Counted from the first letter of the stretch, positions 51,125-54,495 are shown. The stretch is 64,000 nucleotides of DNA from Candidatus Heimdallarchaeota archaeon (GCA_019056785.1 DXJV01000019.1:1-64000); one strand, 5' to 3'. Notes: a model not told the origin generated them from the sequence alone. Numbers and translations are program-made.

Positions 51125-51979
51125 TCATTCATTAAAAAATTCTTGGAAAATTTCTTTTTCTTCATCTGGCTCTTCGTTGGGAGAGCATACACTAGAATAA
51201 GAAAGGAGAACCACACCTATAACAAGAAGTAATAAAGAAAGACTCTTTACAGCCAAAACCCAGGTTGCCAAATTAGACCACTCCGAAAAGATGATCATCC
51301 CCCCAAAAACAGGTATAGTAAGTGTCATAATAGAAAAAACAGGCGCAACAATAACTGCTTTCCCTTTTTGGAAGGCTATCTGTGGTAAGATACCAGCACA
51401 AATGTTGTAAAAAGCCATAAGAAGGACATACACCCACCAAACCCATTCCTTTAAAAGTGAAACAAAGGAAAAACCAATTTGCCCAAAGTTAATGCCACTC
51501 ATGAAAGCTTTAGTGAAAATGTCTCCCAGACCAGAGAAAATGCCACCTGCAAGGGCAAAAACAATACTTCCTAAATGGAATTTTCGGGCAGCAGAATAAC
51601 TCATGGCTAGAACCATTAATCCAGTTAAGAGAGAAATAAAAAGGATGGCTTTAACTTGTAGAAATGAATTGTTAACCTCAGTGAGAGTATAGGTACGTTC
51701 CCCACCAAAGTTTGTTACCCCTAAGAGAACGACACCCATGATGATGAGCACGATAGCAGTCAACTCCCAAGAATTAATTGCTTCGTGAAGATAGAAATGT
51801 GAAAATAGTGCCAGAGAAAGAAAACCAACTGCTTGTAAAGGAGCAACGACAGAAAGAGAGCCTTGATTCATAGCAACAACAAGAAATAGAAATGAAAGGA
51901 CTGTGAGAAGAAAACCAAAAAGCCAGGTCCGGTTGGTGAAGAAATTCTTAAGATTCTGCCAAAAAGAAATAGTCTCCAC
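51125..51979 (-). CDS. DMT/NIPA-like membrane transporter, possibly 5'-truncated
   Basis: NRTWLFG, SLSVVAPL..LHEAI, QIAFQKGKAVIVAPVF; many TMs. In-frame stop at 52034-52036 upstream. Confidence 0.72.
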   Translation of the reverse strand: METISFWQNLKNFFTNRTWLFGFLLTVLSFLFLVVAMNQGSLSVVAPLQAVGFLSLALFSHFYLHEAINSWELTAIVLIIMGVVLLGVTNFGGERTYTLTEVNNSFLQVKAILFISLLTGLMVLAMSYSAARKFHLGSIVFALAGGIFSGLGDIFTKAFMSGINFGQIGFSFVSLLKEWVWWVYVLLMAFYNICAGILPQIAFQKGKAVIVAPVFSIMTLTIPVFGGMIIFSEWSNLATWVLAVKSLSLLLLVIGVVLLSYSSVCSPNEEPDEEKEIFQEFFNE

Positions 51980-52113
51980 TTGGGGAAGAGAAGAAGCCCG
52001 GACATCACACGAAGTTACAACAAAACGGTAATTTTAAAAGGGAAAAGAACGCAAGGCAAAAATTGGTCTGGAAAAAAGGGAAAAAAAGAACAAAAAATAG
52101 GTGATAACGAAGA

Positions 52114-54495
52114 ATGACAAGTGAGAAAACGATGAAAGAAGAAACCCAAGAAGAAATGGAAACAACGGTAACAAAAGAAACGGTACAAAAGCCAGCCATA
52201 AAAGCAGAAGAAAAAGCTAGAGAAAGTAAAGAAGAAACAAAAGAAAATCAAGGAATAGAAGAGATAAAAGAAATAATAGAACTCGAGGAAAACAGAAAGA
52301 GATTCTGGTATAGAATGCAAGGAGGGATAAAAGGCACACTCTATGGGATATGGGAATTCTTCAGACATCCGAAAAAAACACTGAAAAGGTTCTATAAAAA
52401 CAAGGGACTAATAGTCTACTTGGTAGCAATACTGGCTGGAGTGGTAGGAGCAATAGCAGCATGGTTCTTCAGCAATTACATATCAATAATGAGAATATTG
52501 TTCTATGGACTGATGTTTAATAACGCAGGAAGCATAGGGAGAATAGCATTAATAATACTATTACCAACAATAGCGGCAGCAGTAACCGCACCAATATTAA
52601 ACAAGTGGGCACCAGAAGCTAAAGGTCACGGCATTCCGGAGGTTATGGAGAGTATTCTGTATAAAGATGGTTATATTAAGACTACCACACCTTACCTCAA
52701 GATGTCACTTTCTGGCATTTGCATTGGTGGTGGGTTAAGTCTTGGTCGTGAAGGGCCCATTGCTCAGATTGGTGGTGGTTTTAGCTCTTTTCTTGGTCGC
52801 CATTTGGGTTTGAAGGGGCGCTATATTCGTACTGTTGTTGTTTGTGGTTTAGTAGCAGGCATTGCTACTACTTTTAATGCCCCTATTGGTGGGGCTCTTT
52901 TTGGCCTCGAGATTTTAATTATTTCTCTTAGCGCTGATCAGCTGATTCCTGTTATTTTATCCTCTATGATTGCCACCATTATTGGCCGTTTTATTCTTGA
53001 ACGTCGTGCTCAACCTGTTTTCTCTCTCCCCAGTGAATTGACTGAGATCGAATTTTCAGATTATATCCCCTATTTACATTGGTTCTTACTTCTGGGTGTT
53101 CTTGCAGGCTTTGTTGCTTTATTTTATACGAAAGCCATTGGTTTAGTTGAACAACTTGTCCATAAAATCCACCGAGTGCATCCTGTTCTCTGGCCCATTG
53201 CAGGTGGTTTACTTACCGGTCTTCTTGGGCTTATCTCCCCAAAAGAAGGCAACCGTCAGCTCAATTTCTCTCCGCTTGGAAATGAACAACCGGTTATTTC
53301 CATTGATAATGTGAATGGCATCCCCCGTATTTTTGGCGTTGGTTATGAAACAATCACTGATCTCTTCTATAACAAACCTCAAACTGATTCTTGGAGCATC
53401 TTTGGAGGTGGGATTTTTGTTGTTATTATTCTCTTAGTTCTTCTCAAGATCTTGGCTACAGGCTTTTCTGTTGGGACAGGCAACTCGGGTGGAGTATTTG
53501 CCCCAGGGCTTTTTATTGGCGCCTCGACCGGCTATTTGTTCGCCATTGGTGTTGATTCTCTTGACCCAGCCATTACTCTTTCCTCACAAGACATCGCTTT
53601 ATTTACTCTAGCTGGCCTTGCAAGTGTTTTTGCTGGCTCCTCGCGGGCTGTTTTAACCATGATTTTTATGGCTTCTGAGATGACGTCCTCCTATTATACT
53701 TTTATCCCACTCATGCTCACCTGCACTATCAGCTTCTTCATCAACAAGCTTACCATGAAGAGCAATATTTACACACAAAAACTCGAATTACGTGGCCTTG
53801 ATGTTACTCTTGCTGGTCCGACCGACATTCTCGAAACCTACAAAGTTAAGGACATTATGACAACCAACGTTATCTGTGTCCCGAAGGATATGCGAATGCA
53901 TGAGTTTGACTCTCTCGTCAAAACAATGGACCACCTTGGCTATCCTATTATCAATATGGAAGGGAAATTTCTTGGCATGATCACCACTACCCATCTCAAA
54001 GAAGCCCTCAGTACAAACCAAATGGATAAGACGGTTTATGAGATAGGCGAAAAAGACCCCTATGTTCTCTTTCCAAATGAAACGCTCGACCAGGCGATGA
54101 GCCTCCTCTTTAGAAGCGAAATCGGGCGGATTGCTGTTCTTGACTCACCAGAAACACGCAATTTAGTGGGCATCATTTCCAACTCAGACATCTTGCGTGG
54201 CTTGGAGATGCAAAAATTGAAAGACCTCGAAGAACGACGATATGCTGACCAAAAGCTCGCAGAATTGGAGCTGCGCCTTGTCCAAAAGACTATCGAAAAA
54301 TATCCCGAGCTTGCTGAAAAGGTCAAAGTCATTAAGCGAGAAGATGTCAATCGGATCATTGAGAAGGACCTCCTCAACTTTCTCCGAGAAAAATGCGCTG
54401 TTAACACTTTGAAGGAGAAAATCGAAGAAGAATATCAAGCTGTTATTCAAAAGAAGAAAAAGGCTCCTAAGAAGAAAGGAAAAGCCGCTAAATAA
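52114..54495 (+). CDS. ClC-family chloride channel/transporter with two CBS domains
   Basis: GHGIPE, GREGP (gating Glu), FNAPIGG, GGVFAPGLFIG; CBS pair (VKDIMT..GYPI, GIISNSDI). Confidence 0.95.
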   Translation: MTSEKTMKEETQEEMETTVTKETVQKPAIKAEEKARESKEETKENQGIEEIKEIIELEENRKRFWYRMQGGIKGTLYGIWEFFRHPKKTLKRFYKNKGLIVYLVAILAGVVGAIAAWFFSNYISIMRILFYGLMFNNAGSIGRIALIILLPTIAAAVTAPILNKWAPEAKGHGIPEVMESILYKDGYIKTTTPYLKMSLSGICIGGGLSLGREGPIAQIGGGFSSFLGRHLGLKGRYIRTVVVCGLVAGIATTFNAPIGGALFGLEILIISLSADQLIPVILSSMIATIIGRFILERRAQPVFSLPSELTEIEFSDYIPYLHWFLLLGVLAGFVALFYTKAIGLVEQLVHKIHRVHPVLWPIAGGLLTGLLGLISPKEGNRQLNFSPLGNEQPVISIDNVNGIPRIFGVGYETITDLFYNKPQTDSWSIFGGGIFVVIILLVLLKILATGFSVGTGNSGGVFAPGLFIGASTGYLFAIGVDSLDPAITLSSQDIALFTLAGLASVFAGSSRAVLTMIFMASEMTSSYYTFIPLMLTCTISFFINKLTMKSNIYTQKLELRGLDVTLAGPTDILETYKVKDIMTTNVICVPKDMRMHEFDSLVKTMDHLGYPIINMEGKFLGMITTTHLKEALSTNQMDKTVYEIGEKDPYVLFPNETLDQAMSLLFRSEIGRIAVLDSPETRNLVGIISNSDILRGLEMQKLKDLEERRYADQKLAELELRLVQKTIEKYPELAEKVKVIKREDVNRIIEKDLLNFLREKCAVNTLKEKIEEEYQAVIQKKKKAPKKKGKAAK
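52596..52633. other. Abrupt strand-composition (A-to-T skew) switch point inside the ClC gene
   Basis: The last of 19 consecutive ATA Ile codons ends at 52596; the first of 19 consecutive ATT begins at 52633. Arg switches from AGR to CGY. Confidence 0.85.

What the first reader, a model, noticed from the sequence alone, without database searches (positions are those of the whole stretch)
51125..54495. Sharp, strand-symmetric mutational switch inside the ClC gene (~52,615): candidate cryptic replication origin or site-specific DNA-processing locus
Seen: within one intact ORF, all 19 Ile codons from 52114 to 52596 are ATA and the next 19 (52633-52995) are all ATT. Arg changes from AGA/AGG to CGT/CGC, and Gly/Ala/Val go from mostly A-ending to mostly T-ending, with the flip at GCA-CCA-GAA|GCT-AAA-GGT. 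The A-rich + strand continues left through the spacer and the divergent DMT gene, whose sense strand uses T/C-ending codons. The bias is therefore a mirror image about the site, independent of gene direction, and appears to fade over ~1.5-2 kb. The nearest DNA-metabolism genes (HAN/RecJ-like nuclease to the left, SSB to the right) are both transcribed away from it. Established: replication origins give upward jumps in T-A/G-C skew. Inference: a point where the replicated or single-stranded strand switches, lying in coding DNA with no cdc6/orc1 and no clear ORB array. This would be an unconventional origin, a recombination-dependent initiation hotspot, or a fixed nick/resection site.
Basis: partly seen in the sequence, partly recalled or inferred. 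Interest (0 to 1): 0.85.

Follow-up and report, generated by a model that had tools for sequence, protein, structure and literature searches.

The report
Strand-bias flip inside chloride-channel gene
In this Heimdall-group Asgard archaeon, silent DNA letters flip within about ten codons from A-rich to T-rich inside an ordinary chloride-channel gene. It is one of about twenty same-direction flips in the genome, many at tRNA genes, and looks like the trace of DNA copying or repair that keeps starting at fixed spots.

Summary
The flip is real: 19 ATA then 19 ATT, with the switch at 52601-52634. Contigs from three other runs bridge it, and both ClC halves group with the same orthologues, so misassembly and chimera are rejected.

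It is not unique. The genome has 17 such A-to-T foci against 2 of the opposite polarity. They ignore gene direction and fade over about 1 kb with a weaker tail. The strand leaving a focus 5'->3' loses A and G and gains T; a C>T/A>G deamination model fits badly.

Foci are enriched at tRNA genes and at the ends of a structured-RNA element of Csm3-like/HD cassettes, and also occur in a closed genome of another family. The ClC focus has no such anchor, no ORB, cdc6 or hairpin, and is absent from all orthologues examined. It is not a canonical origin.

Best reading (0.42): a site where DNA synthesis repeatedly starts, leaving the outgoing strand single-stranded so that purines are lost and replaced by T. 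Main rival (0.30): recurrent breaks or stalls, resection and error-prone fill-in.

The scan noted these foci before, in this and other Asgard genomes. I found no paper describing them.

The parts
52601..52634 (.). Centre of the focus (95% interval of the switch), in the conserved WAPEAKGHGIPE motif of ClC; no hairpin, repeat, ORB-like box or RNA family
49700..52617 (.). Left arm: + strand A-rich and T-poor at silent and intergenic sites, strongest 52114-52617, fading leftward
52618..54495 (.). Right arm: + strand T-rich and A-poor, strongest 52618-53100, faded by about 54500-55000
52114..54495 (+). Intact ClC chloride channel/transporter with CBS domains (793 aa); host gene of the focus, vertically related to orthologues that lack the flip
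51980..52113 (.). Spacer between the divergent DMT and ClC genes, A67/T17, part of the left arm
51125..51979 (-). DMT/EamA-NIPA-like transporter gene in the left arm, T-ending codons; probably lacks about 93 N-terminal codons relative to strain X10
48762..50912 (-). DnaJ-zinc-finger/S1/OB/DHH (HAN, RecJ-like) gene; its 5' part lies in the tail of the left arm; bystander
54698..55087 (+). SSB-like OB-fold gene at the end of the right arm; bystander

Best explanation
The site is one of about 20 fixed points in this genome where a strand-specific mutational process has acted often enough to reset silent sites within about 1 kb on both sides (shown). On the strand that leaves the point 5'->3', A and to a lesser degree G are replaced by T, and A by G (pattern shown; rates are a model fit). 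Inferred mechanism: DNA synthesis is repeatedly started at the point in both directions, origin-like but without Cdc6/ORB, probably from an R-loop, D-loop or nick. The outgoing parental strands (lagging templates or displaced strands) stay single-stranded longest next to the start. Lost or damaged purines there are copied with dA opposite them (A-rule, established knowledge), giving A>T and G>T; adenine deamination or dC insertion gives A>G. tRNA genes and structured-RNA elements are common anchors. ClC is an unanchored focus gained in this lineage (or lost in the others examined), and what specifies it is not visible in the sequence.
For: One polarity only: 17 A-to-T against 2 T-to-A foci at z>7 (p 7e-4). 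Pooled outgoing 4-fold sites A .05, T .66, C .23, G .06; Lys/Glu/Gln A .38, G .62; NNY unchanged; mirror image on the incoming strand. Model fit A>T x7, G>T x4.7, A>G x2.7 gains 662 log units against 164 for C>T plus A>G. Decay about 1 kb plus a tail to 12-16 kb, with sawtooth profiles between foci. The weak 100-kb background skew has the same A/T-only flavour at about one eighth strength. In closed genome G016 the background is A-rich left of cdc6 and weakly T-rich in parts to the right, the same polarity as the foci (weak). tRNA genes are enriched (G000 mean z 2.5 vs 0.3, p 2e-6; also G010, G016; 53 of 61 positive; arms equal). 16 of 35 RNA-scaffold ends have z>4 against about 3% of intergenic sites. 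The shifted two-fold class diverges faster than the control class (71/297 vs 60/387, p 0.006), which favours mutation over purifying selection.
Against: No nascent-strand, coverage or raw-read data were available. The spike is about 8 times the background and fades far faster than a normal fork travels, so an extra local step must be assumed. No focus at cdc6 in G000 or G016. No shared motif. Equilibrium frequencies cannot tell damage on the outgoing strand from misinsertion opposite the incoming strand, and the rates are not uniquely identifiable. The divergence test was not reproduced in G004/G005, and after saturation correction (my arithmetic) the rate is about 1.3-fold, between pure mutation (about 2) and biased fixation (about 0.7).
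Confidence: 0.42

Rival explanations
1. Recurrent double-strand break, nick pair or fork-stalling roadblock at the centre; 5'->3' resection exposes the incoming strands, and a low-fidelity (Y-family) polymerase refills the outgoing strands, misinserting T and G opposite template T and T opposite C. At cassette ends the trigger could be the Csm3-like/HD ribonucleoprotein acting on its own flank.
For: Two equal arms with about 1 kb decay and a longer tail match the geometry of human meiotic break footprints (1-2 kb resection, strand-asymmetric flanks, >10 kb tail; PMC7615360). The genome has a Y-family polymerase, three PolB, NucS and two TopoVI-A/Spo11-like genes. All four well-preserved RNA scaffolds in G000 sit at foci. 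TA and AA contexts are somewhat more depleted than CA.
Against: Breaks would have to recur very often inside EF-1alpha, EF-2 and tRNA genes. The Y-family polymerase is class-wide and so explains nothing specific. G016 has strong foci with no cassette or scaffold found. No guide-like match to the ClC centre in the 82%-complete genome. G>T needs an unusual misinsertion.
Confidence: 0.3
2. Biased fixation rather than mutation: strand-biased mismatch correction in heteroduplexes that start at these sites, or selection for a polar A-rich/T-rich DNA signal that directs a motor or chromatin protein to the centre.
For: Near-complete bias at silent sites; some foci persist across the genus (EF-2 start); NucS present; corrected divergence is only about 1.3-fold.
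Against: Shifted sites diverge faster, not slower. Smooth decay and turnover between species. A NucS-type bias (T/T, G/T, G/G preferred; own knowledge) predicts G over C on the outgoing strand, but C exceeds G. No motif.
Confidence: 0.12
3. Transcription-associated damage on the non-template strands of a strong bidirectional promoter or of antisense transcripts at the centre.
For: Many foci lie at strongly transcribed units (tRNAs, EF-2, EF-1alpha).
Against: Arms cross gene boundaries and orientations. Upstream and downstream arms of tRNAs are equal. Ordinary genes show almost no 5'-3' trend. Convergent gene ends are, if anything, the enriched context.
Confidence: 0.08
4. A canonical Cdc6/Orc1-ORB chromosomal origin hidden in coding DNA.
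For: Polarity is that of an upward T-A jump, as at origins.
Against: No cdc6 on this contig; ORB-like matches below chance, none at the site; long-range skew does not stay inverted; about 20 equal sites; absent in orthologues.
Confidence: 0.04
5. Chimeric gene or misassembly.
For: The switch is sharp and lies at the start of the most conserved ClC segment.
Against: Bridged by contigs of three runs; both halves group with the same orthologues and N-terminal identity (52-60%) equals that among orthologues; bias fades on both sides and extends into neighbouring genes.
Confidence: 0.01

Closest known systems
Skew jumps at replication initiation zones, human skew N-domains (PMC3320577)
   Same: Abrupt upward T-A jumps of one polarity, gradual return between jumps, independent of gene direction.
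   Different: There the domains are megabase-sized, decline linearly and the skew is small. Here there is a near-saturating spike of about 1 kb, A/T without G-over-C skew, centred on tRNA genes, RNA elements or coding motifs of a prokaryote.
Strand-asymmetric mutation flanks of human meiotic break hotspots (PMC7615360)
   Same: Point-centred, mirror-image, about 2 kb arms with a >10 kb tail; A>N changes; translesion polymerases invoked.
   Different: There the signal is an excess of rare variants with C>N prominent and PRDM9/SPO11 set the site. Here it has reached compositional equilibrium, C is unchanged, and no motif is found.
Time-single-stranded gradients of vertebrate mtDNA (PMC9561281)
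   Same: A gradient at silent sites attributed to one parental strand staying single-stranded; A>G included.
   Different: mtDNA is dominated by C>T and A>G transitions; that model fits poorly here, where A>T and G>T dominate. Two symmetric arms at many sites.
Origin-independent, recombination-dependent replication of Thermococcus kodakarensis and Haloferax (PMC5663688)
   Same: Archaeal replication that can start without Cdc6 or oriC.
   Different: No fixed start sites or compositional footprints are described in the passages read, and the authors judge R-loop priming unlikely there.
ARAMP/HRAMP array-less CRISPR derivatives (PMC8730458)
   Same: The cassettes at several other foci have weak Csm3/Cas7 and Cas10-HD similarity.
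   Different: No link to strand skew or to self-directed DNA processing is described; the ClC focus has no cassette.

Membership tests
Canonical archaeal oriC (Cdc6/Orc1, ORB) | cdc6/orc1 gene beside the site | tested here: not met
   Cdc6_C matches only on contigs C76 and C3, neither with a focus at the gene
Canonical archaeal oriC (Cdc6/Orc1, ORB) | ORB or mini-ORB repeats around an AT-rich intergenic unwinding element | tested here: not met
   16 matches against 22 expected, none at 51-54.5 kb; centre is coding, no repeats. A divergent Heimdall ORB is not excluded
Canonical archaeal oriC (Cdc6/Orc1, ORB) | Skew stays inverted along the replichore | tested here: not met
   Background returns to its former sign after the foci on C90 and C84
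Canonical archaeal oriC (Cdc6/Orc1, ORB) | Initiation shown by marker frequency, nascent strands or Orc1 binding | not testable with these tools
   Only assembled contigs available
Programmed break/resection hotspot | Mirror-image strand-asymmetric flanks of 1-2 kb with a longer tail | tested here: met
   against PMC7615360
Programmed break/resection hotspot | Targeting motif or guide at the centre | tested here: inconclusive
   No significant motif; no guide-like match in an 82%-complete genome
Programmed break/resection hotspot | DNA ends and ssDNA on the 3'-overhang strands | not testable with these tools
   Needs END-seq or strand-specific ssDNA sequencing
ssDNA deamination gradient (mtDNA type) | C>T and A>G dominate on the exposed strand | tested here: not met
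   Gain 164 log units against 662 for A>T, G>T, A>G
Diversity-generating retroelement | Reverse transcriptase and a template/variable repeat pair | tested here: not met
   No RVT_1 match in G000 (82.5% complete); no repeat of the centre
Heimdall skew foci (class noted by this scan, not a published family) | A-to-T polarity, two fading arms, gene-direction independence | tested here: met
   z 13.3, arms +10.8 and -8.2; fourth strongest of the genome
Heimdall skew foci (class noted by this scan, not a published family) | tRNA gene or structured-RNA element at the centre (common, not universal) | tested here: not met
   No tRNA, Rfam family, scaffold or hairpin at 52.6 kb

The most novel reading that the evidence does not exclude
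Heimdallarchaeia, among the closest relatives of eukaryotes, start much of their DNA replication at dozens of dispersed, evolutionarily mobile, Cdc6/ORB-independent sites specified by RNA-DNA hybrids (tRNA genes, CRISPR-derived structured RNAs, and in trans at coding sites such as this one), with an uncoupled first kilobase that leaves a purine-loss footprint.
Probability: 0.2. Interest if true: 0.95.

Novelty: new variant of a known kind. Interest (0 to 1): 0.78.

Why it matters
The foci give a sequence-readable map of where a frequent, strand-specific DNA transaction happens in largely uncultured Asgard archaea. If they are initiation sites, they show many movable, motif-free start points in a lineage close to eukaryotes and make the question of when multi-origin replication arose testable at named coordinates. 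If they are break/repair sites, they are a prokaryotic counterpart of hotspot footprints. The ClC case shows that a focus can sit inside an ordinary coding sequence in one lineage only, with no tRNA or element, which constrains any targeting model. Practically, such arms mimic horizontal transfer in codon-usage scans and bias silent-site analyses.

Tried and rejected
Motifs: k-mer enrichment at 12 centres gave nothing beyond chance; GTCAY (9 of 12, p 3e-5 among about 18,000 candidates) is no better than the best words of random sets. Hairpin, repeat, promoter, Rfam and bulge-helix-bulge searches at the ClC centre were negative; the terminator-like excess follows from the T/A richness. Trans guide: no convincing match of the centre elsewhere in G000. 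The cassette as sole cause was rejected because G016 has foci without it and the g4-family cassettes have none. DGR/reverse transcription: no RT found. The 117-aa antisense ORF 52015-52368 is a low-complexity shadow. Amino-acid-level drift in ClC was too sparse to score. The two-exponential decay fit is descriptive only; far bins fit badly. No gene with this exact product on record; no RNA holder listed; no close metagenome relative fetched. PMC7307682 is not held. Literature searches found no description of these foci; subscription papers are not covered.

Full report
Observation. The window is the first 64 kb of contig C90 of a 2.87-Mb, 82.5%-complete genome; relatives are titled Candidatus Heimdallarchaeota and the DNA occurs in vent and sediment metagenomes. 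The ORF 52114-54495 is an intact ClC protein with CBS domains. Its first 19 Ile codons are ATA and the next 19 ATT; Arg is 8/8 AGR before and 22/23 CGN after. With ATA at 0.20 genome-wide this is far beyond chance. The switch lies at 52601-52634. The + strand stays A-rich leftward through the spacer, the DMT gene (z 3.6) and the start of the RecJ-like gene (z 4.6), and T-rich rightward for about 1.5-2 kb.

Artefacts. Contigs from three other runs bridge the site, including a 64-kb contig of a strain about 4% divergent. Trees of the parts before and after the switch place both with the same orthologue clade, and N-terminal identity to orthologues equals that among orthologues. Misassembly and chimera are rejected. 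Orthologues at 60-69% identity show no flip, so the focus is lineage-restricted; gain here is more parsimonious than loss elsewhere.

It is one of many. A matched-filter scan of silent sites finds 17 A-to-T foci at z>7 and 2 of opposite sign; ClC ranks fourth. They lie inside genes (EF-1alpha, PPDK, a 2-oxoacid oxidoreductase subunit, an aminotransferase, actin, a Rab-like GTPase) and between tandem or convergent genes. Further single arms run into contig ends (13 ends at z>5 against 5 opposite). Pooled, the bias falls from 0.35 to 0.1 within 2 kb and is detectable to 12-16 kb; the weak long-range skew resumes its earlier sign beyond the focus on C90 and C84, so these are not replichore boundaries.

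Spectrum. On the strand leaving a focus 5'->3', four-fold sites are A .05, T .66, C .23, G .06; Lys/Glu/Gln codons shift from 0.30 to 0.62 G; NNY codons do not change; the incoming strand is the mirror image. A codon-equilibrium model needs A>T x7, G>T x4.7 and A>G x2.7; deamination (C>T, A>G) explains about a quarter as much. The rates are not uniquely identifiable. Between two close genomes the shifted two-fold class diverges faster than the unshifted one (71/297 vs 60/387, p 0.006). This leans to mutation, but one other pair did not repeat it. The 100-kb background skew has the same A/T-only character at about one eighth strength.

Anchors and range. The EF-2-start focus is kept in at least six genomes of the genus and weakly in two of another family; the EF-1alpha focus is strong in a subset. 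Cassettes of another family have none. The closed genome G016, where no cassette or scaffold was found, has five foci in 560 kb, the three strongest on tRNA genes. tRNA genes are enriched in G000, G010 and G016, with equal upstream and downstream arms, and more so when they carry introns (p 0.011). The element is thus one anchor, not the cause of all foci. The ClC centre has no tRNA, element, hairpin, repeat, ORB-like box or guide match, and no motif is shared by centres. cdc6 genes carry no focus.

Mechanism. Shown: a point-centred, two-armed, single-polarity bias acting on DNA, not on codons or transcripts. Inferred: it must recur on the scale of generations to override background mutation. 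Two geometries fit. In the first, synthesis starts at the point in both directions and the outgoing parental strands wait single-stranded; purine loss copied by the A-rule (own knowledge) gives A>T and G>T with C untouched. The shared flavour with the background skew, the sawtooth tails and a weak same-polarity change near cdc6 in G016 favour this (0.42). In the second, a break or stalled fork is resected 5'->3' and refilled by a sloppy polymerase; arm length and tail match human hotspot flanks (PMC7615360) and the enzymes exist, but it needs very frequent breaks in essential genes (0.30). Biased conversion or selection (0.12), transcription (0.08) and a canonical origin (0.04) fit worse; the remainder is for unconsidered causes.

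Comparison and novelty. It works like skew jumps at initiation zones (PMC3320577), hotspot flanks and mtDNA single-strand gradients (PMC9561281), but fails the membership tests for a canonical oriC, for a deamination gradient and for a DGR. Origin-independent archaeal replication is known (PMC5663688) without fixed sites. The paper on the closed Heimdallarchaeum genomes never mentions skew (PMC8813620), and my searches found no description. The scan has noted the same class in this and other Asgard genomes. I rate it a new variant of a known kind of footprint, made by an unidentified process; interest 0.78.

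Noticed in passing
window 51980-52005 (- strand): Strain X10 has 256 letters where the window has 3 (51999-52003). 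The net 253 nt would put an ATG at 52005 in frame with the DMT gene, adding 93 codons; the Pfam EamA match also lacks its first 47 positions. The DMT gene here is probably 5'-truncated.
   Followed up: partly
window 50994-52000: Against strain X10 the DMT region differs by 9.5% and the spacer 50994-51192 is replaced, against 2-4% on either side: possible recombination tract in the left arm.
   Followed up: no
L045:6646-6668 (G000:C84 about 166667): EF-1alpha has an in-frame TGA where the DTPG motif needs Gly; relatives are intact. Assembly error or real G>T change on the outgoing strand of the strongest intragenic focus.
   Followed up: no
G000:C11:152535-152765, C70:39534-39767, C58:12365-12613: Three of four small Lrp/AsnC ligand-binding-domain genes end at a focus or strong arm; the fourth (C100) does not.
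   Followed up: partly
L046:3186-3424, L053, L052 and loci: The RNA-like element ends in a short hairpin plus a GGTGATA-like box and abuts start codons, tRNA ends or gene ends that differ from copy to copy, as in mobile elements whose guide is the flank. Stand-alone copies without the cassette exist.
   Followed up: partly
tRNA genes in G000, G005, G008, G009, G010, G016: Intron-containing tRNA genes have stronger foci than intron-less ones (mean z 4.2 vs 2.1, p 0.011; ARAGORN intron calls unchecked).
   Followed up: partly
intragenic foci (window 52618; G000:C84, C16, C57, C32, C5, C25, C65): Intragenic centres tend to fall on highly conserved protein motifs (GHGIPE, P-loop, NNFIYGMTGGQ, DGVFSMDGD); seen by eye, not tested against chance.
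   Followed up: no
L097, L116 (G035): A cassette plus EF-2 contig close to this genus lies in a genome of another family: bin contamination or transfer.
   Followed up: no
L036: Record titled Bathyarchaeia carries a ClC 64% identical to this one in a similar gene layout; probably a mislabelled Heimdall genome.
   Followed up: no
G000:C58:12850-12990: GC-rich, probably structured RNA at the contig end, right of a strong arm; not identified.
   Followed up: no
G000:C84:116014 and C44:64224; C47, C5, C60: Two TopoVI-A/Spo11-like genes and three family-B polymerases in the genome.
   Followed up: no
window 34291-34379, 38168-38242, 41489-41641: tRNA-Ser, tRNA-Thr and tRNA-Ser genes in this window show only weak skew (z 1.4, 2.0, 0.4).
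   Followed up: yes
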